Assembly (NCBI GenBank): GCA_039024315.1
Contig: JBCCQN010000005.1
Coordinates: 23,469-87,468 of the forward strand
Origin: Bacteroidota bacterium
GTDB lineage: Bacteria; Bacteroidota; Bacteroidia; J057
Length of the DNA stretch: 64,000 nt
Direction: 5' to 3'
The notes beneath the pieces are model-generated. The model made no database searches. It was not told where the DNA came from and was given only the letters and a program-made list of their open reading frames with translations. Positions 32,196-46,900 of this stretch are shown here, in pieces. The stretch's first letter is position 1; each line of letters opens with the position of its first letter. The translations under genes were made by a program, and so were the position numbers.

Positions 32196-32909
32196 ATGGC
32201 ACGAATCATTCAGTTAGCGGTGCTGCTTTGCGTATTTATTTTTACCGCTTGCAAGACAGAAGTAGCTCCCCCAGAGGAGTCTCCGAAAGAGGAAGTAGAG
32301 CTTAAGGCAGTCTTTTCATATTTGGCGCTGGGCGATTCCTACACTATTGGCGAAAGTGTAGCCGAAGCCATGCGCTGGCCCGTACAACTACAGGCCAAGC
32401 TGGAAGCAGAAGGAACAGAAGTGCTAAGTCCGGAAATCATCGCCCGTACGGGTTGGACCACTGACGAGCTACAAGTTGCGATTGAACGTTCTGCGCTAGC
32501 AGATACCTTTGACTTAGTCTCTCTCCTCATCGGAGTCAATAACCAATATCGGAGCTATGACTTCACCCGATACGAAAAAGAGTTTGTCGAACTACTAGAC
32601 CGAGCGATCAAATTTGCTCAAGGCGACAAGAAAAGAGTATTTGTCGTCAGCATTCCCGATTATGGTGCGACCCCCTTTGGACAAAGTGGTAATCCACAAA
32701 AAATCGGCGAAGAGCTCGACCAATACAATGCCTACGCCCAATCCGTTTGTGAAGCGCGTGAAATCCCTTTTTTCAACATTACCCCCATCTCCCGCGAGGC
32801 CCTCAATGATCCCGAACTAGTTGCCCGCGATGATCTACACCCCTCCGGCAAGATGTATAGCCAGTGGGTGGACTTGTTTTGGGAGGAGGTACAAGTCTTG
32901 GTGGAGTAG
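32196..32909 (+). CDS. SGNH/GDSL-family hydrolase lipoprotein
   Basis: The lipobox is IFTAC. Block I is LALGDSYTIGESV, block III is LIGVNNQY and block V is DDLHPS. Confidence 0.8.
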   Translation: MARIIQLAVLLCVFIFTACKTEVAPPEESPKEEVELKAVFSYLALGDSYTIGESVAEAMRWPVQLQAKLEAEGTEVLSPEIIARTGWTTDELQVAIERSALADTFDLVSLLIGVNNQYRSYDFTRYEKEFVELLDRAIKFAQGDKKRVFVVSIPDYGATPFGQSGNPQKIGEELDQYNAYAQSVCEAREIPFFNITPISREALNDPELVARDDLHPSGKMYSQWVDLFWEEVQVLVE

Positions 32910-32912
32910 GGC

Positions 32913-33875
32913 TTAGATCTGTTTTTTGAGGACTAATTGGCGATAATAATGACCAAGAGGAGTTAGCTTACAACTTTTGCTATTCATAGCTGCATCGTAC
33001 ATATGCTCCTCGCCCACTGGTACCACAAAACCTACTTTGGCAAACTTTTGTAATAATCGGAATTGTCTCTCTTTTTCTGTGTCTCCGAGTTTTGCTTCTG
33101 GTTCATAAGCGGGCTCTAGAGGAAAGTTATCTAGTTTACCTTGAAACAGTGGCTTCAATTCGCGAATAACTTCAGCTTCCAGAGCTGGTTTACATTTACG
33201 GATTACTGACTCACGCTCCAAATAGGCAGCGAACTGTGGCCTTTGATCTGCTAAAGAAAGTAACTGCTCTAAATGCCGGTACAAACTTCCTAAAGTTACT
33301 TTTCCGACTACATCTCCTGCTTGTCCTTTCAGACCATCGATTAAATGCTTGGTAAAGATGCTACCACCTGCACTCATTTCAGCACTTTGCTCAGAGCTTG
33401 CAGCTGCCAAAATAGCCATTCCTTTCCGAAGACTGGTTCTGTCCTCCCCCTGAGAGGAAATTTGAAACATTTCCCCACTGAAGCAACAGTCTAGGATGAT
33501 AATCACCTCATCATGATGGCTATTCATCGCTAAACTTTGCAGCTCAAAAAAAGAGATACCAGGATCATCTAGTGTGGCTTCAGAGGTACATAAAAATCCG
33601 ACTCCGCCTTTGACACTACCATGACCTGAAAAATATAACAGACATTCGTCATAGTTTTTATCGTTAAAAAACTTAATCAGTTTGTTGCGTAATTGGCTTC
33701 TTCTGACCGTTTCTCGGTCATTTAACAATGTATCACAATGATAATTGTACTTCCCATCATGATCTTTACTTAAGATTTCTTCTAGGCGCTCTGTCTCTTT
33801 AATCACGCCGGACAAATTGGGAAACTTTTTACTCTTATAATTTTCAATGCCGATCAAGAGGGCTTTGCGATCCAT
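32913..33875 (-). CDS. Caspase-fold (Peptidase C14-like) protease with a C-terminal domain of about 95 aa and unknown function
   Basis: 320 aa beginning MDRKALLIGIENY. The catalytic His context is LLYFSGHGS and the catalytic Cys context is IIILDCCFSG. A 1-nt gap separates it from the upstream ATPase gene. Confidence 0.8.
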   Translation of the reverse strand: MDRKALLIGIENYKSKKFPNLSGVIKETERLEEILSKDHDGKYNYHCDTLLNDRETVRRSQLRNKLIKFFNDKNYDECLLYFSGHGSVKGGVGFLCTSEATLDDPGISFFELQSLAMNSHHDEVIIILDCCFSGEMFQISSQGEDRTSLRKGMAILAAASSEQSAEMSAGGSIFTKHLIDGLKGQAGDVVGKVTLGSLYRHLEQLLSLADQRPQFAAYLERESVIRKCKPALEAEVIRELKPLFQGKLDNFPLEPAYEPEAKLGDTEKERQFRLLQKFAKVGFVVPVGEEHMYDAAMNSKSCKLTPLGHYYRQLVLKKQI

Positions 33876-33876
33876 A

Positions 33877-35361
33877 TTATTCAGGCTTGGTTTGGATTTG
33901 TAAACACATGTGTCGGAGATAAGAAATTTGCGCTTCCTCGGCTCCTAACTGATGTAATTGAGAGATTGCCATATGTAAAAGGCTAACACAATATAACTTT
34001 AATGCGATATTTTCCTTCACTTCGGGGTCATTTTGATCCGGTTCTTCGATGATGACCTCCGTATCCGTGGCCAGAACGTGAATAAAATCGCGTTCGAGAT
34101 CCTCATTACTGATTACGGCAGCTTCGTATTCATCGGGCAATTCAGCCGTGGTATTGACTAGGACAAGACGAGATTTGGCATTTTTTGCGCTTATTTTTGT
34201 TACGATATCCTTCCAAGTCATCAAAGCACTTAGGCCACAAAAACGATAATGCTGGGCGAGAAAATGCTGCCAATGCAAACGACTGATCGCGTATGCTAGG
34301 ATTTGATTTCGGTATTGCCCTAAAATACGCTGTAAAATATGAGGCTGATCGTTCGCGAGTAGCGTAAAAAATGAAAATACCTGCTTGTTTAGGTAGGCCG
34401 GTAGCTCATGGACGATAGGATCATCAGGCAGGAGTTGGTTACGGGTGGCAGTAAGCTTGAGATGAGGACTGTTGACCAATACCTTGATAAAAGAAAAATT
34501 AGCTGGCAAAAAATTATCCTCTGTTTCGCAAACCCAAACGCCTTTTTTAAAAACCTGAGCTCCGTTGGTTTCTGCGACTTCCGATATCGGGCCTACACTC
34601 AAAAAAATCTGACTACCATCAAGTGCAGTATGCACATAGTTCGCCAAAGACTGGTGTTGGGGATAGTAGTTTGTTAGAAGTGCTTGGGCTTCATTTTTGT
34701 TCCAGAGGATAGCTTGTGCGGTATCTTTTTTTACGGCTTGCCGAACGCTTCTCTCGACAAACTCACAGCTTGGATTTATAGCCTCCGCTCCCTTTCCGAT
34801 CAAGATTGGTTTGCGTAATAAGGCAAAAGTACGCCTAATATAAGCCTCCAAGGCTTCTCTTTTGGCTAGGTGCAAAAACTGAGGCTTAAGCACCAATTTG
34901 ACACTAGTCCCTTGGGGTGCATCCTCTTGCTCAAATAATTGCATTTGATTTTTGCCCTCTAGCCAAAGCAGTCGATTCGCATGCGTACTCTCTGCTTGCC
35001 GACTAACAATTTCAATTCTTTGCGCCAAGGCAAAACCGCTCAGACGTCCAATCCCAAATTCCCCTAAGCAAGACTCATCTTGTCTTGCCACTTTATTGCC
35101 AAATATTGAAAAGTTTTTGACTAACTCCTCTCGACCCATGCCCCTCCCTTGGTCTGAAATGATGATAGCACCTTCTTCAATATCGACCCTAATGGGCTTA
35201 AATTCATCATTTTGATAAGCATCAAAGGCATTTGATATATAGGCTCTCAGAGCAATCAAAGGCTCTGGTAAATAGCTTTCACGCCATAATTGGAGCACAT
35301 GGGCAAATTTGCTTTGTAGATTTACCGTTTGTCCAAACTCTGTGCTGAGTTGGTTAGTCAT
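33877..35361 (-). CDS. Divergent Hsp90/HtpG-like GHKL ATPase
   Basis: 494 aa. The Bergerat-fold motifs appear in Hsp90 order: LRAYISNAFDAY (N-box, compare LRELISNASDA), IIISDQGRGMG (G1, DxGxG) and LGEFGIGRLSGFALAQRIEIVS (G2, compare IGQFGVGFYSAFLVA). Confidence 0.7.
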   Translation of the reverse strand: MTNQLSTEFGQTVNLQSKFAHVLQLWRESYLPEPLIALRAYISNAFDAYQNDEFKPIRVDIEEGAIIISDQGRGMGREELVKNFSIFGNKVARQDESCLGEFGIGRLSGFALAQRIEIVSRQAESTHANRLLWLEGKNQMQLFEQEDAPQGTSVKLVLKPQFLHLAKREALEAYIRRTFALLRKPILIGKGAEAINPSCEFVERSVRQAVKKDTAQAILWNKNEAQALLTNYYPQHQSLANYVHTALDGSQIFLSVGPISEVAETNGAQVFKKGVWVCETEDNFLPANFSFIKVLVNSPHLKLTATRNQLLPDDPIVHELPAYLNKQVFSFFTLLANDQPHILQRILGQYRNQILAYAISRLHWQHFLAQHYRFCGLSALMTWKDIVTKISAKNAKSRLVLVNTTAELPDEYEAAVISNEDLERDFIHVLATDTEVIIEEPDQNDPEVKENIALKLYCVSLLHMAISQLHQLGAEEAQISYLRHMCLQIQTKPE

Positions 35362-35563
35362 AGATTCCTAAATAGATTGATTTAACGTTCTCCCCATAGG
35401 GGGGACGCAGCCTCAGCTGCGCCCCAGTCGAGAGAGAGTAAAAATGAAAATTAAATTGTTTAGGTGTGCATTCTGGCCTGAGTACGATAATCGCATAATG
35501 CTTTGGTTTGATCAATACCAGAAAAGTGGTAGTTATTTATTTTGTGTTCTCGGTTTTGGTTTA

Positions 35564-35729: not shown

Positions 35730-36392
35730 CTAGTCAGTGCCTAAGGAGGGATCAATTAGGCCTATCTGGACGGCTTTCATCAATAGCTCTTGACTATTCC
35801 GAGCCCCTAGTTTTTTGCGTATGTTACGAAGATGGGTATGCACCGTATTGGGAGCGATTTGTAGATTTACACCGATCTCGTCACTGGTTATGCCTTTGGC
35901 CAAAACGCGAATAATCTCTAGTTCTCTTTTGGAGATTTTGGGCTTCGGTTTTTGTTCTTCTCGGATAATTTCTGGCAGCATTTTCATTACATCTTGCCCA
36001 TAGTATTCTCTACCAGTAGCAACCTCCCTTACCGCGAGAACAAGTTCGTTAGCAGAGTCATCTTTAAAAATATAGCTGCGTACACCTAAGCGTAAAGCTC
36101 GCTTAACATAAACCTTAGCTTTGTGGTTAGTTAGTATCACAATGCCAATATCCTGACTAGGATATTTTTCATAGATAGCCGCGGTTGCCTCTAAACCCGT
36201 TTGTCCTGGCATCTCAAGGTCCATGATCACCACGTCGACCTCGTGTTTGTGCTGATCGACTAAGTCAACGACTTCTAGGCCGTTGGTAGCATGAGCAATT
36301 ACATTTACTCCCTCTTCATACTTTAAGAGTGCCGCCACTCCTTCGCGAAACATTTGTGTATCCTCAGCAAGGATTACATTAACTATTTTCAT
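35730..36392 (-). CDS. NarL/LuxR-family response regulator (REC + GerE HTH)
   Basis: The phospho-acceptor context is VVIMDLEMPG and the HTH is SKRELEIIRVLAKGITSDEIGVNLQIAPNTVHTHLRNIRKKLG. I chose the start at 36392 (MKIVNVILAED) by alignment with the paralogue; the track ORF extends to 36410. Confidence 0.9.
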   Translation of the reverse strand: MKIVNVILAEDTQMFREGVAALLKYEEGVNVIAHATNGLEVVDLVDQHKHEVDVVIMDLEMPGQTGLEATAAIYEKYPSQDIGIVILTNHKAKVYVKRALRLGVRSYIFKDDSANELVLAVREVATGREYYGQDVMKMLPEIIREEQKPKPKISKRELEIIRVLAKGITSDEIGVNLQIAPNTVHTHLRNIRKKLGARNSQELLMKAVQIGLIDPSLGTD

Positions 36393-36393
36393 G

Positions 36394-38622
36394 CTAAACT
36401 GGAATTTCAATATTGACCGTGGTACCTCGCCCTAGCTGAGAGTCATACTCACAACTCCCTCCTAAGCTATTGGTGATCGTGTGGATGATTTTCACTCCTT
36501 TCCCTTCAAATTCCTTATCAGCCGTATCGAAGCCTACACCGTCATCAATCACCATCAAGTTTAGGAGATCATCTACCTCTGTTATGTTGATTTCGATATT
36601 TTTGGCGCCGGAGTGTTTGACCGCATTATTGAGCAATTCGGATATTAATGAGTAAAGTTTGACGCGAGTATCCAAACCCAATTTTTCAGCATTAAAATCA
36701 AACACGGGCTCTACTGCTATATTACTGTATTGAGAAGTCTTTTGACACAGTTCTTGGACAGCATCGGCAAAGTAGCGCTTAGCCAAGACAGTCTGCCCAT
36801 TCTCGTGAGAAATCGCTCGAACTTTTTCTTGAATTTGAGAGAGGTTCTCTTCTAAGTTTTGCCAAACTTCTTGATTCAAAGCTCCAAATCCTTGTTTAAA
36901 TGGATGCTTTGCTAAAGTAAAGAGAGCCCCCACGTCATTGTGTAAAGCCAAAGAGATACGCCCTCTTTCTTCTTTTTGTCCTTTGAGCATCGCCAAGATA
37001 GAGTCCGCTTTATTGCTTTCGATCAGATTCTCGATTTGGAGCTTTTGATATTGGACTTCGGCTTTCTGTTTTTCCGCTTCCGCTTTTTGTCTTTCCGCTT
37101 CCGCTTTTTGCTTAGCTATTTCTACCTTTTGGGCTTCAACCTCAGATTCCTTATATGCGGCTAAAATACGCTGTTTTTCAGCCTCGGATTTTTGCTTAGT
37201 CTCTTTAGTTTTTTGAAGATAAAAGATCACACCTACAATCAAAGTAAAAAGGACAAAAACCAATATGAAGTTTCGGACTAGTATTTTTCTCTTCGCCGCC
37301 GCGGCCTGCTCATACAATTTGAGGTTAGTATCAAAGTGTGAGGCTTCGGCTCGTCGTAAGCTACCATTGATCATCTCGACAAGACTATCTTCGGCCTGGC
37401 TGTATTGGTAAGCTTGATCGTAGTCTCCCAATTGAGCATTGAGAAAAGCTAAGTCATCAAGAACGCGACGATGAAGGTCGTTTTGTTGGGTATTAGCGAC
37501 TTTTTCCAAACTTTCACTTAAAGAGATCTGAGCTGATTTAAACTGCTTGGTTTCCAGATACAATTCGCCCAGATTAATGTACGCCAATACCGCACTTCTA
37601 GAACTTTGCGCTCGAGATAAAGCTACCGCCTGTTTATAGTATTGCTCTGCTTTTGTAAAATCTTTTTGTTTTTCGTGAATGGTACCAAGTTGGTTCATTA
37701 ACTTGGTAAAGTCTTCATACTCAATTTGATACTGATCTATTTTCTTATTGAACGCCTTGAACGCTTCTTCCCCTATTGTTAATGCCTCATCTTTTTTTCC
37801 CATTTCCCCCCAAAGTCCAATCAAAGCTACTTCAGCTTTTATCAGAAGAGGAATATTGTTTACTTCTTTGGCGTAAGTCAATAAGTCTTGAAGCTGTGAT
37901 TCGGCCGAATCATAGGCTCCTAATTCCAAATAAATGTTTCCGAGGGAAAGACGATTATAGGCAACACCGGCCTGTTCTTCCAATTCATGCATTACAGATA
38001 AGCTATTGAGGCTATTCTCCAAGGCTTTGTCCAGTTCTCCCTTCTGAAATAAGGCATCAGATAAGTTGATCTGTATATAGGCCGCTACTTTATCATCTTC
38101 AATGTCTTGCCATATATCTAGACCTTTTTGGAAGTGAAATACTGCGGAATCCAAGTTCCCCAACTTCTTATGAATTATCCCTAAATTGTTATGACTATCC
38201 CCTACATTTCCAGTCAGGTCTAGTATTTTTCTCAGGCTCAGCGCCTTTTGCGCAAATTCTAAGGCTTCAACAAGCTCATTTTGACGTTGGGCGATGGTAC
38301 TTTTTTGACTGTAGCAGTCTGAGGCAAGATGAGGATAATCTCTTTTGAGTGCCAATTGTAAAGTCGAATCAAGCATATGTGAAGCTTTTGTATAATCCTT
38401 ACCTGCTTGGATCAGCTCAAAGGCATCATTATTAATAGCCCACAATCCTTCTAGGGAAGTCGAGTTTTGGGCTGATAAATTCGTAGAAGCCATAAAAAGA
38501 AGTACAAATACAACCGCAAATTTTCTTGTTTCTATCAATCCAAAAAACATATATAAGAGCTTATTTATGGCAAGTCTGTGATCATTCTTTTCTGTTGTTA
38601 TCAAACCCTTCATAGGGGACAC
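36394..38622 (-). CDS. TPR-repeat sensor histidine kinase (HisKA_3 + HATPase_c), copy 1
   Basis: 742 aa. The order is an N-terminal signal/TM, about 380 aa of TPR-like repeats, a TM (FILVFVLFTLIVGVIFYL), a KAEAE coiled coil, the H-box ALHNDVGALF, the N-box ELLNNAVKHSGA and the G-box DDGVGFD. Confidence 0.85.
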   Translation of the reverse strand: MSPMKGLITTEKNDHRLAINKLLYMFFGLIETRKFAVVFVLLFMASTNLSAQNSTSLEGLWAINNDAFELIQAGKDYTKASHMLDSTLQLALKRDYPHLASDCYSQKSTIAQRQNELVEALEFAQKALSLRKILDLTGNVGDSHNNLGIIHKKLGNLDSAVFHFQKGLDIWQDIEDDKVAAYIQINLSDALFQKGELDKALENSLNSLSVMHELEEQAGVAYNRLSLGNIYLELGAYDSAESQLQDLLTYAKEVNNIPLLIKAEVALIGLWGEMGKKDEALTIGEEAFKAFNKKIDQYQIEYEDFTKLMNQLGTIHEKQKDFTKAEQYYKQAVALSRAQSSRSAVLAYINLGELYLETKQFKSAQISLSESLEKVANTQQNDLHRRVLDDLAFLNAQLGDYDQAYQYSQAEDSLVEMINGSLRRAEASHFDTNLKLYEQAAAAKRKILVRNFILVFVLFTLIVGVIFYLQKTKETKQKSEAEKQRILAAYKESEVEAQKVEIAKQKAEAERQKAEAEKQKAEVQYQKLQIENLIESNKADSILAMLKGQKEERGRISLALHNDVGALFTLAKHPFKQGFGALNQEVWQNLEENLSQIQEKVRAISHENGQTVLAKRYFADAVQELCQKTSQYSNIAVEPVFDFNAEKLGLDTRVKLYSLISELLNNAVKHSGAKNIEINITEVDDLLNLMVIDDGVGFDTADKEFEGKGVKIIHTITNSLGGSCEYDSQLGRGTTVNIEIPV

Positions 38623-38738
38623 AATTTTTATTTATAAGACGAGGAGTCATAGATTTTTAACCGATGGCCACCTAATTAGCTTTGTGGGACTTACTAAGTA
38701 GCCTGCAATTAAATCAACGGCTCATCAATAATTCATCA

Positions 38739-39419
38739 TTAGAATTTGTTTAAGTTTTCTTGAATCTTAATAAGGTACTCATATACTTTTAGACCGATCT
38801 CTAAGTTTTCGAATCGAATGGTTTTGTGATTAAAACTCCCTAACTCTTTGGTAAAAGCAGGATCTTTTAAACAATTTTCAGCATTCAAACACTTAAAATG
38901 GATTATTTCTACTGCTGGACCAACATTCGTATTGCCTGATTTGTGGGGTAAATGCTCAATACTTATTAACACATCCTTCAAATTTCCAAGTATTCGTCCT
39001 TTGGACGCAGAACCCATATCAAATGAAAAGTTTCCATGACTGTCGAACTTGACAACTGTTCTGCCATTCTTGTTTAATAAATCCTCTAACTCCTTGACAG
39101 GATTTTGATAATCTTCTTTTTGCCGTTTGGAAGTTTTTGGTTCCTCATATAAGAGGCCAATAATGTCAAGGTTTGAAATGAACTCACTGATGCTAACCAC
39201 TAATTTATTCCGCTCAATATTTCCATCACTTTCACTGACTAAATCTAATCTCATTTTCCGCATTAACTCTTTATGTCTTAATCGAAAGTTGACAAGTTCA
39301 GTTTTCTGATTGTCTGGAAGAGTTAACGAACTAATACTCTGAAGGCACTGAAAAATATCTTCAGAACATATTTCCAAAAGTTTATTCTTAGTCATCGTTT
39401 TGTCAGTTATGAGCTTCAA
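38739..39419 (-). CDS. Hypothetical protein (AT-rich orphan-like gene)
   Basis: 226-aa ORF, visibly more AT-rich than the surrounding genes. It has a helical N-terminal about 95 aa and a beta-rich C-terminal half. I recognise no motif. Confidence 0.5.
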   Translation of the reverse strand: MKLITDKTMTKNKLLEICSEDIFQCLQSISSLTLPDNQKTELVNFRLRHKELMRKMRLDLVSESDGNIERNKLVVSISEFISNLDIIGLLYEEPKTSKRQKEDYQNPVKELEDLLNKNGRTVVKFDSHGNFSFDMGSASKGRILGNLKDVLISIEHLPHKSGNTNVGPAVEIIHFKCLNAENCLKDPAFTKELGSFNHKTIRFENLEIGLKVYEYLIKIQENLNKF

Positions 39420-39491
39420 TCAAGATCATACCGCTAAGTATTTCACCGTCCCTTCGACTATAACAATATATACCCATACTACTAAAAAGCG

Positions 39492-39533
39492 ATGATTAAT
39501 ACTATTTTTTTAATAAAAAATAGTATTAATCAT
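39492..39533. repeat. 42-bp near-perfect palindrome
   Basis: atgattaatactatttttt (39492-39510), taat, then aaaaaatagtattaatcat (39515-39533). The arms are 19 bp and perfectly complementary. Confidence 0.7.
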
Positions 39534-39881
39534 TGCACAAATGACTAAAAAATAATTAAGCAGATAAGAAAATTATAGTACTATTACTGTAAACTCTCCG
39601 GTCGCAACAAAAAAACAGAGCTTCCTAGCATAGGAAAGTACGCAGAGAAATTCTGTTTTTGGCAGTGCGAATAAGGTATTTGTGTCTATGATGGTACAGG
39701 CCCTACCACTACAATCAAAAGTAGCGTTTCACATGTGCTTGTTTCTTTTGTAACTCTCGTTTCAATTTAAATTGTTAATGAGAACGATTTAGCTTTCTGC
39801 ATTTATCTCTCCTTAGGCAACAATTATTTCAAAGGCCTAGAGTCAAAGTAGAGCTCAATGCATGATGCCGAAATACTGAGC

Positions 39882-40556
39882 TTAAAAGGTTTGGTGCTTT
39901 TCACTTTCAGATTCTAGTTCAGGGGATATCAGGCCTTCTTTTATTGCCCAAACAACCAATTCAACCGTATTCCCCAGATTCAACTTCTGCAACATATTCC
40001 TGCGATGGGTGTGGACCGTATTTGCAGAGATGAAGAGTTTATTTGCGACTTCCTCTGTAGTTAACCCCTGTTTTAAAAGCTCAACAATTTGAATTTGACG
40101 CTTTGATAATTTTGGCTTGGGGGGTTCATTAGCTTCTCTAATAATTTCTCTTTGTAATTTCACCAACTCTGCACCATAATATTCCTCCCCAGAAGCAACA
40201 GTCCTAATTGCAAGCATAAGTTCATCATAATAATCTGCTTTAAGGATGTATCCTGGAATCCCAATAGTTAGGGCACGACGTAAGAATGCTTTACCTTTAT
40301 GGGTAGTCAGGATCACAATACCTACTCCTTGATATTTTTCTTTTATCTCGATGCTAGCTTCCAGCCCCCCTTTTTTCGGCATTTCAAGGTCCATGACAAC
40401 CAGATTAACCTCATGTTTATGCTTTTCGACGAGTGTAAGAACTTCTTCCCCATCTTCAGCCTGGGCGATTACCCTGACTCCTACCTCATCTTTGAGTAAA
40501 GCCCTAATACCGGCTCTAACAATGTGCATGTCTTCTGCTAAGATAATATTGATCAT
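39882..40556 (-). CDS. NarL/LuxR-family response regulator (paralogue of 35730-36392)
   Basis: It has the REC context LVVMDLEMPK and the HTH SKRQIQIVELLKQGLTTEEVANKLFISANTVHTHRRNMLQKL. The start overlaps the kinase stop by 4 nt. Confidence 0.9.
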   Translation of the reverse strand: MINIILAEDMHIVRAGIRALLKDEVGVRVIAQAEDGEEVLTLVEKHKHEVNLVVMDLEMPKKGGLEASIEIKEKYQGVGIVILTTHKGKAFLRRALTIGIPGYILKADYYDELMLAIRTVASGEEYYGAELVKLQREIIREANEPPKPKLSKRQIQIVELLKQGLTTEEVANKLFISANTVHTHRRNMLQKLNLGNTVELVVWAIKEGLISPELESESEKHQTF

Positions 40557-42592
40557 TTTGCTGATGCTATAGGTATTTTGATTTTCACTGTTGTTCCGTG
40601 ATTTATCTGAGAATCATACTCACAATCTCCATTCAAATTCTTCACCCTACTGAAAATATTCCTCATACCGTCTCCTGTAGGATTTCGGATAAGCGAGGAC
40701 GAAATTCCTTGCCCATCATCTTCGACCATAATTTCGCAATCCAAGGCTGTGATAGTAAGGTAGATTGTAACCAGATCAGCATTTGCATGCTTAAGCGAAT
40801 TATTCAAAAGTTCTATTATTATCGGATAAACTTGCATTTCGAAGTTAGAATCGAGTTCTGCTGAATCATCAATTGTGATGTATTGCTCGATCTCAGGGGG
40901 ACTACTTTGGTTTAGTTTATCTACTAATTCTTCAATAGCAGCCTTTAGACCTAACCGAGTTAAAACACTTGATTTTAGATTCTGTGAAATATTATAAATC
41001 TCGTTACTTACCTTTCTTAAGGTATCCTTGAGGGGGTGATTAGGTACATTCTCTCCTATCTGCTTTGATGCTAAGGTCAACAATGCCCCCACTTCATCGT
41101 GGAGCCTTTTTGCAACTCTTAATCTTTCCGCTTCTTGCCCTTCGGATTTTGCCAGTACGAATTTATTCTCATTTTCCTGAATTAGTTTTGCGATTTCCGC
41201 TTTCTTCTCATCAACAATCCTTTGTTGTTGTAACCTTTTCCTTCTTTGCTGGAAATACAGAATAAGCCCAATAAGAGAAATCAGCAATACCAGAATTATG
41301 GCATTTCTCAGGATAGCATTTCTCTTCGCCGCCGCGGCCTGCTCATACAATTTGAGGTTAGTATCAAAGTGTGAGGCTTCGGCTCGTCGTAAGCTACCAT
41401 CTATCATCTCGACAAGACTATCTTCGGCTTGGCTGTATTGGTAAGCTTGATCGTAGTCTCCCAATTGAGCATTGAGAAAAGCTAAGTCATCAAGAATGCG
41501 ACGATGAAGGTCGTTTTGTTGGGTATTAGCGACCAATTCTAATCCCTTTTTGAGATGTACCTTCGCTGAATCATATTTCTCCATTTCTAGGAAAAGCTCT
41601 CCTAAATCAATATTAGCAAAGGCTTCGTTTCGCAGGTTTATGCCTTTTGAAAATGCCATAGCTTGTTTAAAGTATACTTTGGATTTTTCATAATCCTTTT
41701 TGCTCTTCCAAAGTATACCTAGTAAGTAGGAAACCTTACCAAGGTCCTCATTTTCAATTTGATATACCTCAATATATTCGTCGATATTTTGGAAGACTTC
41801 TTCTCCAATGGTTAAAGCTTCTTTTTGCCTACCCGAGTTGAGAAAAAGTCCCGAAAGACAACTTTTCACTTTTACCTCTAATGGTATATTCTTAGTTTCT
41901 TTAGCAAATTTTAGGAGTGCTTGAAATTGAGATTCCGCCGAGTCAAATGCGCCTAGTTCAAGATAGATATTTCCTAGAGTAAGTCTAGTATAGGCAATCC
42001 CCTGTTTTTTTTTGAGCCTAATTCTAGACTCTAAGCTATAGATTGCTAATTCTAGCGCTTTATCTAATTCTCCTTTGTGATATAGGGCATCTGCCAAATT
42101 ATTTTGAAATAAGGCAACTACTGATTCATCTCCAATCATTTGCCAAATCTCTAAACCCTTTTGAAAATGAAATACAGCAGAATCTAAATCCCCTAGCTTC
42201 TTGTGAATAATGCCCAATCCATTATGGCTATCGCCGATCTTGCCTTTACTGGCTAGGCCTTTTCTGATCGATAGTGCATGCCAAGCATAGTTTAATGCAG
42301 GCTCCAAATCATCTAGTCGTTGTGCCAAGGTACTTTTTTGACTGTAACAATCAGACTCTAGGCTATCAAATTCAAATTTGACCGCTAGTTCTAAGGTAGA
42401 GTCGAGCAAATGAGTAGCTCTGGTAAAATCTCGTCCTGATCTGATCAAAGCATAAGCTGTATCGTTTAGAACCCATAATTCTTGCTCTAACTCAAACAAT
42501 GTATTTATTGGTTCGGCTTTAAGGCCGCTAAAGCAGAACAATAAGCACATAAATGCCCCAGTAAGCTGAAAATTCAGACTACTCCTTAACAT
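40553..42592 (-). CDS. TPR-repeat sensor histidine kinase (HisKA_3 + HATPase_c), copy 2
   Basis: 679 aa with the same architecture as copy 1. The H-box is RLHDEVGALL, the N-box ELLNNSLKHANA and the G-box DDGQGIS. Confidence 0.85.
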   Translation of the reverse strand: MLRSSLNFQLTGAFMCLLFCFSGLKAEPINTLFELEQELWVLNDTAYALIRSGRDFTRATHLLDSTLELAVKFEFDSLESDCYSQKSTLAQRLDDLEPALNYAWHALSIRKGLASKGKIGDSHNGLGIIHKKLGDLDSAVFHFQKGLEIWQMIGDESVVALFQNNLADALYHKGELDKALELAIYSLESRIRLKKKQGIAYTRLTLGNIYLELGAFDSAESQFQALLKFAKETKNIPLEVKVKSCLSGLFLNSGRQKEALTIGEEVFQNIDEYIEVYQIENEDLGKVSYLLGILWKSKKDYEKSKVYFKQAMAFSKGINLRNEAFANIDLGELFLEMEKYDSAKVHLKKGLELVANTQQNDLHRRILDDLAFLNAQLGDYDQAYQYSQAEDSLVEMIDGSLRRAEASHFDTNLKLYEQAAAAKRNAILRNAIILVLLISLIGLILYFQQRRKRLQQQRIVDEKKAEIAKLIQENENKFVLAKSEGQEAERLRVAKRLHDEVGALLTLASKQIGENVPNHPLKDTLRKVSNEIYNISQNLKSSVLTRLGLKAAIEELVDKLNQSSPPEIEQYITIDDSAELDSNFEMQVYPIIIELLNNSLKHANADLVTIYLTITALDCEIMVEDDGQGISSSLIRNPTGDGMRNIFSRVKNLNGDCEYDSQINHGTTVKIKIPIASAK

Positions 42593-42606
42593 TGTGTTGT
42601 TGTTTA

Positions 42607-43020
42607 TTAGTCCAAATCTATTGGACGACGAATTTCATTTGGTGAAGGCTGATTTACAGGATAGGAATTTTTCTTTTTACCATCCACCATTACAACAATT
42701 TCCATTTTTCGATCTGGAAATTCATCAAGCTTAAGTTCTTCCAAGTTTACTACATGAACCAAAGGAGTGGTAAAAGGGAAGTAAAGAACCTCCAAATCTT
42801 GGCTCAGGTATAACTCTACTTCGTAGACATCATCATTCTCTTCTGAAGTACTATTAACCTTTTCTTTTGGAGTAGTATTAACCTTCGAACCTGATGCAAC
42901 GTATCGGCAGTCGGAAACCTCTGTAACCGTGTGTAAGGCGTAGCCAACAAGTCGATCATTGCCTTCGTCATCTTTTTCAATGATTTTGGCGTAAGTGTAA
43001 TATAGATCGGTGATATCCAT
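42607..43020 (-). CDS. Hypothetical 137-aa protein (two beta-rich halves joined by an acidic/Ser-Thr linker)
   Basis: The ORF sits 17 nt after the metacaspase stop and 14 nt before the kinase start, on the same strand. The linker is KVNTTPKEKVNSTSEENDD. Confidence 0.55.
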   Translation of the reverse strand: MDITDLYYTYAKIIEKDDEGNDRLVGYALHTVTEVSDCRYVASGSKVNTTPKEKVNSTSEENDDVYEVELYLSQDLEVLYFPFTTPLVHVVNLEELKLDEFPDRKMEIVVMVDGKKKNSYPVNQPSPNEIRRPIDLD

Positions 43021-43037
43021 AATGAGTAGGGAGTATG

Positions 43038-43775
43038 TTAGATGGTAAAGGGAATTTGCTCTTTAAAGATTATACCGTGAGGCCCAGAGTAACTCAACAT
43101 TACCGATTGCTGAGCGCCATATTTTCTTCGTATTTTTTTCTTAATCGCTCGTTTAAAAGCCAAATAGTTTCCTTCAAACTCTCCCTCATCCCATACTTCT
43201 AGTAAGCATTCGGTAAAACGTCCGTTTTCCTCTCCCTCATATGCTTCTTGATTATCCGCTGTACCAGAAAGCAATATCACACTGGCCAGCGGTTCGTCCT
43301 GCTCCTCCGTAGGCACCTCTTCGACCGTATCTGCTAGACCATATTTATGGATAGAGCCACCATGACAACAATCTGACACCACCAGTATGCGAACTCCTGC
43401 TGGAAACTCACAAAATAGTTCGTTCAGTTTATCATCTACAAACAATCCATCAAATAAGCAAAGGTTTTCATCTTTACCGTCCCCCTCTTCCTCATCTCCA
43501 TTTTGGTCTTTGGTCTGATAACCATGCCCAGCGTATGTGAGTAAGAAGATATCCCCAGCTTTTACTTTGTCTTTGATAGATCGCACCCCACTAATAAAAG
43601 CGCTAATGGTAGCCTCCTCATTTTGCAAACAAGTAGTTTTAAACTTTTGTTTAGCAGCCAGATCGCGCATAGAGATCATATCCTTAACCGCAACATCTAA
43701 AGGCCACTCGCTGCCATTGTAGTCGTCAGAATTGACAAAATCCAATCCCACATGCAATGAATATCCGTTTGCCAT
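43038..43775 (-). CDS. Metacaspase/orthocaspase-like (Peptidase C14) protease
   Basis: The His context is FLLTYAGHGY. It is followed by the metacaspase-type acidic insert DQNGDEEEGDGKDENLCLFDG and the Cys context ILVVSDCCHGG. I chose the ATG at 43775 (MANGYSLHVGLDF); the track ORF starts at the TTG at 43811. Confidence 0.8.
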   Translation of the reverse strand: MANGYSLHVGLDFVNSDDYNGSEWPLDVAVKDMISMRDLAAKQKFKTTCLQNEEATISAFISGVRSIKDKVKAGDIFLLTYAGHGYQTKDQNGDEEEGDGKDENLCLFDGLFVDDKLNELFCEFPAGVRILVVSDCCHGGSIHKYGLADTVEEVPTEEQDEPLASVILLSGTADNQEAYEGEENGRFTECLLEVWDEGEFEGNYLAFKRAIKKKIRRKYGAQQSVMLSYSGPHGIIFKEQIPFTI

Positions 43776-43911
43776 AGCTTTAGTTTTAAACGCAACTTTC
43801 CTGTTTCTCAATTATCAAAACATTTGAGAAGACACGCTTTTCGAAAAATCAGTTATTGCAGATAATGTAACTTATGGAAAGATAATTAGCGATGTCTTAT
43901 ATACCAAATGT

Positions 43912-43936: not shown

Positions 43937-43965
43937 TTATTTTATCTATACCATTTTTCTGGTAT

Positions 43966-46900
43966 TTATTCCTTGACTAGTACCAATTTGGTACGATCGT
44001 GCTTAAATCGCTGGAAGTAATACTCTCTAAAGGCCTGATAATCCTCCGGTTTGACGATCGCTTGAGTGAACTGATTTTTGCGAATTACCCGGAGTCCGCT
44101 CTCTTCGAGCCTAAATTCAAGACTGTACTCCCCAAATTGAGACCTTAGGCGCACGTCTTCCGGAATTTGATATAGCTTCATGCCTTCAGGCATCCTGATC
44201 AGAAGGTCTTGCTCTGTGGGGGCCAGAACAGTGATTTGCGACACATCCAATAATCCCAATCGTTCTTCTTGCAGCAAAGCATCTGGCAGGCTACCCTCAA
44301 CAATAAGGGGTAAAGTCAAAATGGTCAGATCATACAAATCTTCAGTAAATTCTGGTGCTTGCAGTCCCGTCTGTAAGTAAAGGGGATCATGGATTTTATC
44401 GAGGTTTTCCAATTCAAATTCAGCATACTTTTGCCTCGATATAGCCGGAATGTTGAGCTCACGACGAAATAACTCATTGCTTTCTTGCTGGTCTGTATCC
44501 GTCAATATTTCGCGAAAGCGTGCGCCTTCTACTCCCGTATAGATCCCGTTGATATCCAGCGCGATGCTACCATCGGCCTTTAGATCGGCCCCCAAGTGAT
44601 AGCTGATTTTGGTCCGCTCTGGATCAATCCGAGTATCTGGCAAACGGAAAATACGATCTTCGCCTTCTTTAATCAACAAAGCCCAAGCATCCGCATCCAT
44701 TTCTGGTAGCGCACGATAGGGAAAACGATCGGTAGTCAAATCGACATATTCCATCTTCCCGTCGATCACATAAGCAACCACCACATGATTAAATATCAAC
44801 TGCGGCAAGCACTCAAAAGGGATGTATTGCCCCGCCAAAGTCAAAGCATAATAAGACTCAATATCTGCCATCCGCAGCAAAGCAATCATGAGCGTGGCTA
44901 CATCCTTACAATCTCCGATACCAGAGGTACAGGTGAGTTCAGTCGCTTGAGGCTCAAAATTAGACTGCAAAAAAGAAACCGAAGAGTAATTGATCTCCTT
45001 AGTGATATAGGTGTAAAAAGCAATTACCTTCTCTTCATCGCTCATGCCCGGCTCAACCAACTCATCATATAGCTTTTGCAAATAGGGATTAGGATCGAGT
45101 TTTCGGTAGGTGAGATCATTATACCACTCTACATACTTGCTCCAATCTGTCTCATTGGAAAACCACAGAGAAGGCGATGAATACCAGTCTGCAAAGCCCG
45201 CTTCTTCTTCCTTCAACTTAGGTACATCTTTAAGCTCCCAACGATAAAAATCATAACCCGCTTCCGTCCTGATAGCCGGTTCCTGATCGATTCGATACGG
45301 TACATAGGGTAGGTTTTCCCCTTGGGGAACGCCAATCTCCAGATAAGTAAAGTGGATAGGGTAGGATAGCATAAAGGGCTGCCAAAGCATCCAATGATCT
45401 CCAAAGGGAAACTCCTGCCAGCTAAAGCCATCTGTAGCAGTACCCTCGGCGTAGATTCGATCTCCAGGCCGCAGATCCTTAAAAACTGCAAAATTACCAT
45501 TTTGCTCTGGTCTAAATTCTGTGCCATCAGGCCGAACTACCTTAATGGATACATTATCGCCGAGATAAGAAAAATTTGATTGAGTCCATGCCCTCACCCC
45601 ATTGACAGTATTGATCTGCACCAGCATCTTTTGAGTGCTCTCGACATTGCCGGAAGTATCGACCAAAAACTGCATCGTTCTTAAAGGGATCACCACATTT
45701 TCCTGCTGATAGCGCGCTTGCCATTCAGATTCTTGGGCGAGAATATCTTCAAAGCTTACTTCCTTAAATGCATTGCGCGCCTCAATCGGCGAACGCAGCG
45801 ACTTAATCTTTGCACTAAGCTCATCCCTATAATAAAAGACGTTTTTTTTGTGAGCATCGGCCAATTCAAAATAGTGTAAGGCACTATCCAGCTGCCCCAT
45901 ATCTTGGTAGATCTCGCCTTTCAACTCTAGTAAAGCACTTGAATACGGATGGCAAAGTAGCCCCTCTGAAATAGTAGCGAGCGCCTCCGTCTGTTCATCT
46001 TCTGCCCTATGATAGTTGGCTTTTCCGGTAAAGGAACTCACGTAAAAGGGAAAGCGGGCTAAGGTCTCTTCATGGCCCTTAAGGGGATTTTCTTTTCGCT
46101 TTTTGCGTTCGCGCTTGAGTTTTTGAGCCTTACGCCATCTTTTGAGAGAAAACTTCTCTTTCTCTCCCTTACCCTTTGAGCTATAAGACTCCCTAAACAT
46201 ATTTTCATAATCAGGGTAGCGTTCGACAATGTCGTCTTTGTAAATATCTAGGGTATCGCTCCAATTTTTGAGCCGATAGAAATCAATGGATTTACGGACC
46301 GTCGCGCGATTTGAGCTCGCAATCTCTTGCAACAAACTCAACCAGTTGTAATAAAGCTCACTCTGCATTTCTGCGTTGAGTCGGGTCATCTCACGATTGA
46401 CCAAAGGATAGAGGGGAGTAGCCTTTAAATCGACCCGTTCTAAACTGCGGGAAGCTTGGACGAAATTGCCGACCTTGCCATGAAACATGGCCAAAAAGCT
46501 CCGTAGATATACTGACTCGGAGTAGCGTTCCACCGCAGGGGTAAAAAACGAAATACCTTCTTGATATAGCTCCTTTTTCAAAAACAAACGAGCTAATAAA
46601 TAATAGTCGCTCCATTGAAAATCCTCAGACTTGATCTTGCTCTTTAGGTAAAGGAGATTTTGATCTTCCAAGGACTCAAAGTCCTTTAACGCTCCTTGCT
46701 TTGCTTCGGCTTTTAAAGGAGATAGTCTCACCAATTTACCTTGAGCATCAACGAGACGGACAATAACCCCCTCACTCTGGGTCTGACGGCCATATCGCTC
46801 CGCAGTATCGAAGAAAGAAAATTCTTCATATTGTCTAATATTTGGATTATACGGACTTAATTTTATTCGCAAATCGTGATTTCCAGCACTCAGCAAAATG

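What the first reader, a model, noticed from the sequence alone, without database searches (positions are those of the whole stretch)
32913..35361. Tightly coupled Hsp90/HtpG-like GHKL ATPase and caspase two-gene module
The ATPase stop and the caspase start are separated by 1 nt, which implies co-translation.

The ATPase keeps the Bergerat-fold motifs in Hsp90 order and wording (ISNAFDAY, DQGRGMG, GEFGIGRLSG). It is only 494 aa and is otherwise highly diverged from housekeeping HtpG, so it is unlikely to be the cellular chaperone.

The caspase carries an extra C-terminal domain of about 95 aa (LKPLFQGKLDNFPLEPAYEPE..LLQKFAKVGFVVPVGEEHMYDAAMNSKSCKLTPLGHYYRQL) that I cannot assign.

An ATP-driven Hsp90-like clamp paired with a protease suggests a sensor/switch-plus-effector pair.
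Basis: partly seen in the sequence, partly recalled or inferred. Interest (0 to 1): 0.75.

Follow-up and report, generated by a model that had tools for sequence, protein, structure and literature searches.

The report
Thoeris-type caspase paired with Hsp90-like protein
A bacterial "suicide" protease normally switched on by a small TIR signalling enzyme is here, in one uncultured Bacteroidota lineage, coupled instead to a stripped-down, fast-evolving relative of the Hsp90 chaperone, which points to a so far undescribed way of controlling this immune protease.

Summary
There are two minus-strand ORFs, 494 aa (33877-35361) and 320 aa (32913-33875), joined as TAA-T-ATG.

The 320-aa protein is a full-length member of the ThsE family, the caspase effector of type IV Thoeris. 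It is 33% identical over 319 aa to the E. coli caspase beside the validated EcTIR.

In 80 metagenome loci the caspase had an adjacent TIR gene in 67 of 71 informative cases, and never an Hsp90-like gene. This window holds no TIR in 64 kb.

The upstream protein belongs to the Hsp90/HtpG fold family but is not the chaperone. The Hsp90-like/caspase pair recurs on four further contigs of one Bacteroidota lineage. It lies inside a hypervariable block between well-conserved housekeeping genes.

The closest relatives of the Hsp90-like protein are about 740-aa HtpG-like proteins fused to a Cap12/TIR-like domain. Those are usually followed by a cysteine peptidase.

"ATP-driven" is doubtful. The catalytic Glu is Ala here, and a homologue has lost the glycine loop.

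Best reading: a re-wired Thoeris-IV-like defence module with an Hsp90-like sensor or regulator. It is a new variant of a known kind, and the mechanism is inferred.

The parts
33877..35361 (-). Hsp90/HtpG-family protein, 494 aa, compact and non-canonical. N-terminal Bergerat domain is about residues 1-151 and the middle domain about 152-310, followed by a shortened C-terminal region. Key codons: A40 (35242-35244, where Hsp90s have the catalytic Glu), N44, D70, G100/G103/G105, T152, and R307 (34441-34443).
   Evidence: HtpG residues 9-380, E 4.5e-17; model pLDDT 84.5; Foldseek best hits are full-length HtpG/Hsp90/TRAP1, E 1e-25, TMq 0.64.
33876..33876 (-). 1-nt spacer between the ATPase stop (TAA) and the caspase start (ATG).
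   Evidence: Spacing in relatives is 1, 1, 4 and 24 nt.
33201..33875 (-). Caspase (Peptidase_C14) domain of the ThsE-like protein, residues 1-225. Catalytic His85 is at 33621-33623 and Cys131 at 33483-33485.
   Evidence: (model pLDDT 91.3; best PDB matches are MALT1 paracaspase and caspases).
32913..33200 (-). Conserved C-terminal domain of the ThsE family, residues 226-320 plus the stop codon. It has no Pfam or PDB assignment. In type IV Thoeris it is the hypothesised N7-cADPR-binding domain.
   Evidence: full-length alignment, motif PVGEEHMYxAAMNSKSCKLTPLG; 28 of 34 family-conserved CTD columns kept; no family or PDB match; hypothesis of Rousset et al..
35513..35525 (-). Conserved 13-nt box TTTTCTGGTATTG upstream of the Hsp90-like gene. 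Candidate promoter or regulator-binding site.
   Evidence: The match is exact and unique in the window, in L001 and in L096, always upstream of the Hsp90-like gene.
35391..35440 (-). Conserved leader hairpin about 40 nt upstream of the start codon (core GGGGCGCAGC-TGAG-GCTGCGTCCCC at about 35400-35425).
   Evidence: -28.6 kcal/mol, z -3.5; conserved in L001 and L096 with 2 compensatory pairs; no Rfam family.
35730..38622 (-). LuxR/NarL-type response regulator (35730-36410) and TPR sensor histidine kinase (36394-38622) directly upstream. Possible transcriptional controllers; context, inferred only.
   Evidence: A GerE-type regulator precedes the pair in L001 and L096, and precedes ThsE-like caspases in L008 and L011.
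38739..43811 (-). Rest of the hypervariable block: 226-aa protein (weak EAD11 hit), second RR (39882-40556) and TPR-HK (40553-42592), 137-aa protein (42607-43020), and a short second caspase (43038-43811).

Best explanation
This is a lineage-restricted, fast-diverging two-gene conflict module, most likely anti-phage and abortive-infection.

The effector is a ThsE-type caspase, the effector family of type IV Thoeris. It has an intact His/Cys dyad and the family's conserved C-terminal regulatory domain.

The usual partner is absent. That partner is a small TIR protein that senses infection and makes N7-cADPR. Its place immediately upstream is taken by a compact Hsp90/HtpG-family protein from a small non-chaperone clade. 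Other members of that clade are fused to a Cap12/TIR-like domain and are followed by cysteine peptidases.

The most likely mechanism has these steps:
1. The Hsp90-like protein is the sensing or regulatory subunit.
2. It controls the caspase by protein-protein contact. It either holds the caspase inactive or licenses it when a trigger, for example a phage protein bound as a 'client', changes its conformation.
3. Nucleotide binding, rather than ATP turnover, is the relevant property.
4. The activated caspase then cleaves cellular proteins broadly, after Arg by analogy with ThsE, and stops growth.

The pair probably has its own promoter and a conserved leader hairpin. It may be under the adjacent TPR-kinase/LuxR regulator.

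Shown: the family identities, the absence of TIR in the window, the conserved pairing, the rapid divergence and the state of the motifs. Inferred: the defence role, the direct Hsp90-to-caspase control, the substrate specificity and the regulation.
For: Caspase identity:
- 2527 full-length homologues at about 40% identity.
- In Paenibacillus, Dolichospermum and Bacteroides the homologue directly follows a 133-137-aa ThsB_TIR gene.
- Of 80 metagenome loci, 61 have TIR directly upstream, 6 have it directly downstream, 9 are uninformative and 4 have none. None has an Hsp90-like neighbour. Nine of nine sampled neighbours were confirmed as TIR by Pfam.
- 33% identity over 319 aa, E 4e-50, to the E. 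coli caspase next to the experimentally validated EcTIR.

No TIR and no second Hsp90 homologue were found in the 64-kb window.

Conservation of the pair:
- L007/L010: 67% and 75% identity (Hsp90-like, caspase).
- L001: 45% and 57%.
- L096: the ATPase is 38% identical, and the downstream caspase N-terminus carries the clade signature GVVDET.
- P0007 contig: the caspase is preceded by a gene ending 1 nt before it.
- Sources.

Hypervariability, window against L001:
- Flanking genes LptB 93%, RecJ 89%, transglutaminase 80%.
- Caspase 57%, Hsp90-like 45%.
- Against L007, dN is 4-9 times higher in the pair than in LptB and RecJ, and synonymous divergence is also higher.

The Hsp90-like clade:
- An exhaustive HMM search found only 3 short-form clusters. 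After those come about 20 clusters of roughly 740-aa proteins at E 1e-50 to 1e-31. Ordinary HtpG-length proteins (about 600-650 aa) fill the list from about E 1e-20; these were not individually annotated.
- The long forms consist of HtpG N, M and C domains plus a Cap12/TIR-like domain.
- They are followed within 3-24 nt by Peptidase_C15 in four contigs (L011, L012, L014, L099), two of which carry the same protein. In L011 and L099 they lie beside ThsE-family caspases.
- Short and long forms share a 25-26-aa lid, against 33-38 aa in canonical HtpG.

Conserved upstream box and hairpin.
Against: - There is no direct evidence that the two proteins interact.
- All five occurrences are in one lineage and, where the downstream flank is visible (four of the five), at the same chromosomal site. 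Conserved gene order is therefore weak evidence: vertical inheritance, not independent re-assembly.
- The caspase C-terminal domain is better conserved (28/34 columns) than the protease domain (49/73). This argues that a small-molecule ligand is still sensed. An Hsp90-like protein cannot plausibly make such a ligand.
- ATP-site decay may mean degeneration rather than a new function. The window protein has E40A. P0002 has lost D47, G100, G103, G105 and T152, and carries R307H.
- A defence role rests on family membership and hypervariability, not on neighbouring known defence genes in this window.
Confidence: 0.45

Rival explanations
1. Orphan-effector model. The caspase is still a ligand-gated ThsE, switched on by N7-cADPR or a related ADPR-derived signal from a TIR protein encoded elsewhere in the genome. 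The Hsp90-like protein is only an accessory: a dedicated folding chaperone, stabiliser or safety catch for a toxic protease.
For: The C-terminal domain keeps 28 of 34 family-conserved columns, including PVGEEHMYxAAMNSKSCKLTPLG. In the related L008 cluster a ThsE-like caspase has no adjacent small TIR, but a 757-aa TIR-TPR protein sits five genes upstream. In L099 the caspase follows an Hsp90-TIR-like operon. TIR and caspase can therefore be uncoupled by several genes in this phylum.
Against: No TIR was found in 64 kb of the window, or in the fetched parts of L001 and L007 (21.5 kb and 10.2 kb). Several otherwise conserved positions are changed throughout the Hsp90-linked clade, for example W209A/T, W312R/K, D254E/S and GCVNDA to GVIKET. 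This suggests altered regulation. The tight gene coupling has been kept over deep divergence.
Confidence: 0.25
2. Protease-substrate module. The Hsp90-like protein is not the sensor. It is a latent effector or decoy that the caspase cleaves, as in protease-effector pairs where site-specific proteolysis releases a toxic activity.
For: [quoted passage not shown] The long-form relatives carry an effector-like Cap12/TIR domain and are followed by a peptidase.
Against: The short form has lost the only effector-like domain. No toxic activity is evident in an Hsp90 N-M-C scaffold lacking its catalytic Glu. ThsE is reported as a promiscuous Arg-specific protease that kills by itself.
Confidence: 0.1
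3. Decaying remnant. A deletion in an ancestor resembling L099 or L011 removed the TIR-like domain, the C15 peptidase and any small TIR. What remains is a non-functional Hsp90 stump next to an orphan caspase.
For: ATP-site residues are lost in a patchy way among the short forms. Long-form operons lie directly beside ThsE-family caspases in L011 and L099, so a simple deletion could create the arrangement.
Against: Both ORFs are intact on every contig that shows them, despite 38-75% protein identity. The catalytic dyad, the CTD motifs, 66 of 107 conserved caspase columns and many Hsp90 core residues are kept. dN/dS estimates are well below 1 (0.10-0.20, although dS is saturated). The upstream box and hairpin are conserved. 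Short forms are only about 24% identical to any long form, so the split is old.
Confidence: 0.1
4. Ordinary neighbours. A stress chaperone paralogue and an unrelated peptidase happen to share an operon under a two-component system. No immune function is involved.
For: A TPR kinase and a LuxR regulator sit upstream. There are no recognised defence genes among the immediate flanks (RecJ, LptB, GDSL lipase).
Against: The caspase family is the validated type IV Thoeris effector. The block is hypervariable between conserved flanks. The Hsp90-like clade is absent from almost all genomes and is linked to TIR-like and peptidase genes.
Confidence: 0.05

Closest known systems
Type IV Thoeris (ThsB-type TIR plus ThsE caspase-like protease; Rousset et al. 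2024/2025, bioRxiv 10.1101/2024.10.24.620036)
   Same: The 320-aa protein is a full-length ThsE-family member. It has the caspase domain, invariant His/Cys and the conserved C-terminal domain. The gene sits second in a tightly coupled two-gene unit. The family is found in defence islands and prophages.
   Different: There is no TIR gene next to it or anywhere in 64 kb. The upstream partner is a 494-aa Hsp90-family protein. The caspase forms a long, separate branch with 22 clade-wide substitutions at otherwise conserved columns. It fails the published detection rule, which requires TIR within one gene.
HtpG/Hsp90 molecular chaperone
   Same: It shares the N-terminal Bergerat domain, the middle domain with the catalytic-loop Arg, and the overall fold.
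   Different: It scores 86 bits against a cut-off of 371 for the HtpG equivalog. It is 494 aa rather than about 625. The lid is about 10 residues shorter and about 100 residues are missing after the middle-domain Arg. The catalytic Glu is replaced by Ala. It is rare, fast-evolving and encoded with a caspase.
Uncharacterised ~740-aa HtpG-like proteins fused to a Cap12/TIR-like domain (found here; not described in the literature searched)
   Same: These are the closest relatives of the window protein (E 1e-50 to 1e-31) and share the shortened lid. They are also immediately followed by a cysteine peptidase. They lie beside ThsE-family caspases in two of five contigs (four distinct proteins).
   Different: The long forms keep all ATP-site residues, a full Hsp90 C-domain and a C-terminal TIR-like domain. 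They sit in 5-gene operons of the form [~700 aa]-[~118 aa]-[TPR ~450 aa]-[Hsp90-TIR]-[Peptidase_C15]. The window protein has none of these extras and is paired with a C14 caspase rather than C15.
EACC1-caspase two-gene conflict system (Kaur et al. 2020, PMC7159879)
   Same: The best NCBIfam hit for the protease domain is 'caspase, EACC1-associated type' (3.9e-32). Both are two-gene arrangements with the caspase as the 3' gene.
   Different: The score of 111.5 is below the cut-off of 140. The 5' gene is not a small single-TM EACC1 protein. The caspase carries the ThsE C-terminal domain rather than variable effector domains.
Eukaryotic HSP90 in immunity and cell death (HSP90-SGT1-RAR1 with plant NLRs; Hsp90 restraining Apaf-1/caspase activation). 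From general knowledge, not tested here.
   Same: The theme is conceptually parallel: an Hsp90-family protein gating an immune or cell-death protease pathway.
   Different: There is no evidence of homology of the pathway. This is analogy only.

Membership tests
Type IV Thoeris | Caspase-like effector of the ThsE family with a catalytic His/Cys dyad | tested here: met
   Full-length homology to 2527 family members. 33% identity, E 4e-50, to the E. coli caspase next to the validated EcTIR. H85 and C131 fall in invariant columns.
Type IV Thoeris | Conserved C-terminal domain of ThsE (putative N7-cADPR sensor) | tested here: met
   The alignment covers residues 226-320, and 28 of 34 conserved columns are kept.
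Type IV Thoeris | TIR-domain gene (ThsB_TIR or TIR_2) adjacent, with at most one gene in between | tested here: not met
   The upstream gene is Hsp90-like and the downstream gene is a convergent GDSL lipase. ThsB-type and Cap12-like TIR profiles find nothing among ORFs of at least 50 aa in the 64-kb window.
Type IV Thoeris | TIR-made N7-cADPR activates the protease; anti-phage protection | not testable with these tools
   Needs biochemistry and phage assays.
HtpG/Hsp90 chaperone | Scores above the curated family threshold | tested here: not met
   NCBIfam HtpG 86.4 bits (cut-off 371). HSP90 family 93.2 bits (cut-off 455). Pfam HSP90 12.3 bits (cut-off 24.4).
HtpG/Hsp90 chaperone | Complete ATPase site: catalytic Glu, Mg-Asn, adenine-Asp, GxxGxG lid hinge, middle-domain Arg | tested here: not met
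   N44, D47, D70, G100/103/105, T152 and R307 are present. The catalytic Glu is Ala40, at a column that is Glu in all 25 other sequences. The lid is about 10 residues short.
HtpG/Hsp90 chaperone | Three-domain N-M-C fold with a C-terminal dimerisation domain | tested here: inconclusive
   The model matches full-length HtpG/Hsp90 (E 1e-25, TMq 0.64). Only 187 residues follow the middle-domain Arg, against about 290 in HtpG. Dimerisation was not assessable.
EACC1-caspase system | 5' gene encoding a small single-TM EACC1 protein; caspase scoring above the family cut-off | tested here: not met
   The 5' gene is a 494-aa soluble Hsp90-like protein. caspase_w_EACC1 scores 111.5 bits, below 140.
MORC / MutL / other defence GHKL ATPases (MzaB, type II REase GHKL) | Significant match to the family profile beyond the shared Bergerat core | tested here: not met
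   MutL E 0.086 and MzaB E 0.023. The PADLOC REase_II and TmtA hits cover only residues 19-122. The best PDB and fold matches are all Hsp90-family proteins.
Protease-activated effector modules (Pepco, EACC1, MBL, hydrolase type) | The neighbouring protein is a latent toxin cleaved by the protease | not testable with these tools
   No Hsp90-like effector is described in PMC12642450. Testing requires cleavage assays.

The most novel reading that the evidence does not exclude
An Hsp90-family pseudo-ATPase acts as an infection sensor. It directly licenses a Thoeris-type caspase without any TIR-made second messenger. This would be a prokaryotic Hsp90-caspase immune switch. It would be one offshoot of a wider, undescribed family of HtpG-like immune proteins that use interchangeable effectors: a fused Cap12/TIR NADase-like domain, a C15 peptidase or a C14 caspase.
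Probability: 0.3. Interest if true: 0.8.

Novelty: new variant of a known kind. Interest (0 to 1): 0.62.

Why it matters
Type IV Thoeris is defined by TIR-to-N7-cADPR-to-caspase signalling. A natural variant that keeps the effector, sensor domain included, but replaces the signal generator with an Hsp90-like protein would show one of two things. Either a ligand-gated immune protease can be re-wired to protein-based control, or the C-terminal domain has a second mode of activation.

It would also add Hsp90-family proteins to the list of prokaryotic immune sensors or regulators. That echoes HSP90's roles with plant NLRs and with caspase activation in animals.

The work also brings to light a small, uncharacterised family of HtpG-like-TIR fusion operons that could be tested as a new defence system.

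The practical limits are real. The module is confined to a few uncultured Bacteroidota contigs, and every mechanistic step is inferred.

Tried and rejected
- A word-index protein search with the ATPase gave only itself, one homologue and a weak HtpG hit. The exhaustive HMM search was needed to find relatives.
- The genome-contig scan for the ATPase found one contig only. The metagenome contigs and viral-contig scans with the short-form alignment found nothing. The viral scan with the long forms gave only two weak N-terminal GHKL matches, which I did not pursue.
- A PDB sequence search with the caspase, and with its C-terminal domain alone, found nothing. Pfam at E up to 10 found nothing for the CTD or for the ATPase C-terminal 99 aa. 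The CTD fold therefore stays unassigned.
- An apparent Hsp90-like hit downstream of a TIR-caspase pair in L060 turned out to be a pentapeptide-repeat protein.
- The four loci without an adjacent TIR (L016, L030, L047, L092) have unrelated neighbours: an RTX repeat protein, a Ser/Thr kinase-TPR protein and others. No Hsp90-like gene is among them.
- The NJ tree could not place the Hsp90-linked caspases inside or outside the TIR-linked ones, because of a long branch and a star-like backbone. That the clade is derived from TIR-coupled ancestors is a parsimony argument only.
- dN/dS is not reliable because dS is saturated. Only dN ratios and raw pS were used.
- The sigma-70 promoter and terminator scan showed no enrichment and does not apply well to Bacteroidota. 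Rfam had no match for the leader.
- Literature searches for Hsp90-like or GHKL proteins with caspase, TIR or phage defence found no description of this pairing.
- Whether the genome also has a canonical htpG could not be tested from a 64-kb window.
Full report
**Observation.**

33877..35361(-) encodes 494 aa and 32913..33875(-) encodes 320 aa. The junction reads TAA-T-ATG. The quoted motifs are present in the translations.

Pfam gives HATPase_c_3 (4.2e-11) for the first protein and Peptidase_C14 (1.4e-16) for the second. NCBIfam matches the first protein to the HSP90-family and HtpG models over residues 15-397, at 93 and 86 bits. The family cut-offs are 455 and 371, so it falls far below both. 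The second protein's best match is 'caspase, EACC1-associated type', at 111.5 bits against a cut-off of 140.

**The caspase is the type IV Thoeris effector.**

A protein search returned 2527 homologues. Nearly all are 313-325 aa and align over 97-100% of the query at about 40% identity. They come from Cyanobacteria, Planctomycetota, Bacillota, Actinomycetota, Bacteroidota and archaea. The '95-aa extra domain' is therefore a constant part of a large family.

In Paenibacillus, Dolichospermum and Bacteroides the homologue is directly preceded by a 133-137-aa ThsB_TIR gene. This is the architecture of type IV Thoeris. In that system the TIR protein makes N7-cADPR, which activates a promiscuous, arginine-specific caspase-like protease. 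The C-terminal domain of that protease has unknown fold and was proposed to bind the signal (bioRxiv 10.1101/2024.10.24.620036). Later work calls the protease ThsE.

I located the validated E. coli TIR sequence from that paper's Table S2 in E. coli genomes. I then took the caspase gene beside it. The window protein aligns with it end to end at 33% identity, E 4e-50.

To quantify the partnership I fetched 80 metagenome loci encoding family members and classified their neighbours with a TIR profile:
- TIR directly upstream: 61
- TIR directly downstream only: 6
- Contig too short to tell: 9
- No adjacent TIR: 4
- Hsp90-like neighbour: 0

Nine of nine sampled neighbours, including the weakest profile hits, are TIR by Pfam.

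The AlphaFold model of the window protein is confident (pLDDT 91.3). Its protease domain matches MALT1 paracaspase and caspases. His85 and Cys131 occupy invariant family columns. The C-terminal domain has no Pfam or PDB relative.

**What is different here.**

The window contains no TIR gene. ThsB-type and Cap12-like TIR profiles find nothing among ORFs of at least 50 aa in 64 kb. There is also no second Hsp90 homologue. By the published detection rule, which requires TIR within one gene of the caspase, this is not a type IV Thoeris system.

The caspase belongs to a long, separate branch. It carries 22 substitutions shared by the whole clade at columns that are at least 85% conserved in the rest of the family. 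Examples are GCVNDA to GVIKET, W209 to A/T and W312 to R/K. Even so, the C-terminal domain keeps 28 of 34 conserved columns, against 49 of 73 in the protease domain.

**The Hsp90-like protein.**

A profile of the protein and its one close homologue hits E. coli HtpG residues 9-380 (E 4.5e-17). The hit includes the middle-domain segment that carries the catalytic-loop arginine. The AlphaFold model (pLDDT 84.5) matches full-length HtpG, Hsp90, TRAP1 and GRP94 best (E about 1e-25, TMq 0.64). It is not MORC or MutL.

It is also not the chaperone, for these reasons:
- It fails the family thresholds.
- It is 494 aa, with about 100 fewer residues after the middle-domain Arg.
- Its lid is about 10 residues shorter than in canonical HtpG or TRAP1.
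- The general-base glutamate is alanine (A40), at a column that is Glu in all 25 other Hsp90-family sequences aligned. This is the residue equivalent to E34 of E. coli HtpG, whose mutation in Hsp90s is known to block hydrolysis but not ATP binding (general knowledge).

The other ATP-site residues are intact: N44, D47, D70, G100, G103, G105, T152 and R307. The L001 homologue shows a different pattern. It keeps the Glu but has lost D47, all three glycines, T152 and the Arg. ATP turnover is therefore not a conserved property of this clade, and 'ATP-driven clamp' is not supported.

**Rarity and relatives.**

The exhaustive search of 1.84 billion cluster representatives found only three short-form clusters: the window protein, P0002 and P0124. 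One GTDB species genome carries a copy. JGI metagenomes and IMG/VR have none.

The next-best hits, at E 1e-50 to 1e-31, are about 20 clusters of 727-789-aa proteins. Ordinary HtpG-length proteins fill the list only from about E 1e-20; I did not annotate those individually. The long forms have these features:
- They keep every ATP-site residue.
- They match the HtpG model over positions 29-596 of 614.
- They end in a domain with weak but repeated matches to CAP12/Pycsar TIR and to Cap12 NADase models.
- That domain has a conserved Glu that aligns with the catalytic Glu of ThsB-type TIRs, in a weak profile-profile alignment.
- They share the shortened lid with the short forms.

I looked up four of the long-form proteins, which gave five contigs; L011 and L012 carry the same protein. 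Four of the contigs show the operon [~700 aa]-[~118 aa]-[404-480 aa TPR-like]-[Hsp90-TIR-like]-[Peptidase_C15], with 3-24-nt or overlapping junctions. In the fifth, a TIR_2 protein replaces the peptidase.

In L011 the operon lies just downstream of a ThsB-ThsB-caspase unit and near an integrase. In L099 it is followed by a 149-aa CesT/YbjN-like protein and a 318-aa ThsE-family caspase, which scores 429 bits against the family profile.

Hsp90-like proteins of this clade are thus repeatedly linked to TIR-like domains, cysteine peptidases and ThsE caspases. I found no description of such systems in the literature available.

**Conservation and evolution of the pair.**

The Hsp90-like/caspase pair recurs in the following places:
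- L007/L010: 67% and 75% identity (Hsp90-like, caspase), 1-nt gap.
- L001: 45% and 57% identity, 4-nt gap.
- L096: P0124 is 38% identical, with a 24-nt gap. The downstream caspase N-terminus carries the clade signature.
- The P0007 contig: an upstream gene ends 1 nt before the caspase.

Where the flanks are visible, the site is the same. A GDSL lipase, RecJ and LptB lie on one side, and a LuxR-type regulator lies on the other. This is vertical inheritance in one uncultured Bacteroidota lineage, not independent assembly.

The flanks are well conserved between the window and L001: LptB 93%, RecJ 89%, transglutaminase 80%. Everything between them is not: caspase 57%, Hsp90-like 45%, histidine kinase 34%, short caspase 48% and the 137-aa protein 30%. 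Against L007, dN is 0.17 for the caspase and 0.25 for the Hsp90-like protein, compared with 0.03-0.05 for LptB and RecJ. Synonymous differences are also higher in the pair. This pattern fits an old, diversifying or recombining locus such as an immunity locus.

**Regulation (noticed).**

The 368-bp region upstream of the Hsp90-like gene holds a 13-nt box, TTTTCTGGTATTG. The box is exact and unique in the window, in L001 and in L096. The region also holds a stable hairpin about 40 nt before the start codon (-28.6 kcal/mol, z -3.5). The hairpin is kept in L001 and L096 with two compensatory pairs. It has no Rfam match.

A TPR sensor kinase and a LuxR-type regulator precede the pair. They also precede ThsE-like caspases in L008 and L011. 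Control by this two-component system is plausible but untested.

**Interpretation.**

I consider the module a re-wired relative of type IV Thoeris. It has the same effector, but the TIR has been replaced by an Hsp90-family protein that most likely acts as the sensor or regulator through direct contact. My confidence is 0.45.

The main rival, at 0.25, is that the caspase is still ligand-gated by a TIR product made elsewhere, with the Hsp90-like protein acting as an accessory chaperone or safety catch. The strong conservation of the C-terminal domain is the best argument for this rival.

The other readings are less likely for the reasons given under the rivals: a protease-substrate pair (0.1), a decaying remnant (0.1) and coincidental neighbours (0.05).

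**Verdict.**

The module is a new variant of a known kind. It is interesting mainly because it suggests a TIR-independent way of controlling a Thoeris caspase, and because it exposes an undescribed Hsp90-like family linked to immunity. It is limited by its narrow distribution and by the lack of any direct mechanistic evidence.

Noticed in passing
window 35513-35525 (-); also 43955-43967 (+); L001 9833-9845; L096 248-260: The 13-nt box TTTTCTGGTATTG is exact and unique upstream of the Hsp90-like gene in three diverged contigs. A 1-mismatch copy in the opposite orientation lies in the intergenic region upstream of the short-caspase operon. It may be a binding site for the adjacent LuxR-type regulators, or a promoter element.
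   Followed up: partly
window 35391-35440 (-): A GC-rich leader hairpin sits about 40 nt before the Hsp90-like start codon (-28.6 kcal/mol, z -3.5). It is conserved in L001 and L096 with two compensatory base-pair changes, and those two copies are followed by a T-run. It could be an attenuator or a stability element. There is no Rfam match.
   Followed up: partly
window 42607-43811 (-): A second, short caspase (257 aa, Peptidase_C14 8e-21) is followed by a 137-aa protein with no family match. This pair, together with a TPR histidine kinase and a LuxR regulator, is conserved in L001 and L008. It may be a separate protease module or part of one larger system.
   Followed up: partly
window 35730-39419 (-): Compared with L001, the window carries an extra TPR-HK/RR pair and a 226-aa protein with a weak EAD11 (effector-associated domain 11) hit (E 0.0024, below threshold). 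The region has low GC (0.36-0.41). It looks like an insertion or duplication within the hypervariable block.
   Followed up: partly
window 32.9-43.8 kb against L001: The whole block between the GDSL lipase and the transglutaminase is hypervariable (30-57% identity, one RR at 73%). The flanking genes are 75-93% identical. Synonymous divergence is also higher in the Hsp90-like and caspase genes.
   Followed up: yes
L011 3118-9916; L012; L014 3055-9907; L099 3265-9924; L013 5530-10498: There is an uncharacterised conserved operon: [~700 aa]-[~118 aa]-[404-480 aa TPR-like]-[~740-aa HtpG-like protein fused to a Cap12/TIR-like domain]-[Peptidase_C15, or TIR_2 in L013]. It lies beside ThsE-family caspases in L011 and L099 and near an integrase in L011. 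It is a candidate new defence system.
   Followed up: partly
L008 1766-8954; L099 10000-12330: In related Bacteroidota contigs, ThsE-family caspases lack an adjacent small TIR. In L008 the caspase follows HK-RR, with a 757-aa TIR-TPR protein five genes upstream. In L099 it follows a CesT/YbjN-like 149-aa protein. Both caspases are followed by an 8xMP-family gene.
   Followed up: partly
window 32909-32913 and 30289-30314: The gene packing is very tight. The convergent GDSL lipase ORF ends 3 nt from the end of the caspase ORF. The RecJ ORF and the BNR/Por_Secre_tail ORF overlap by 26 nt.
   Followed up: no
L004 5185-6954: In Dolichospermum a Pepco gene (a protease-activated pore-former family) sits directly upstream of the TIR-caspase pair.
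   Followed up: no
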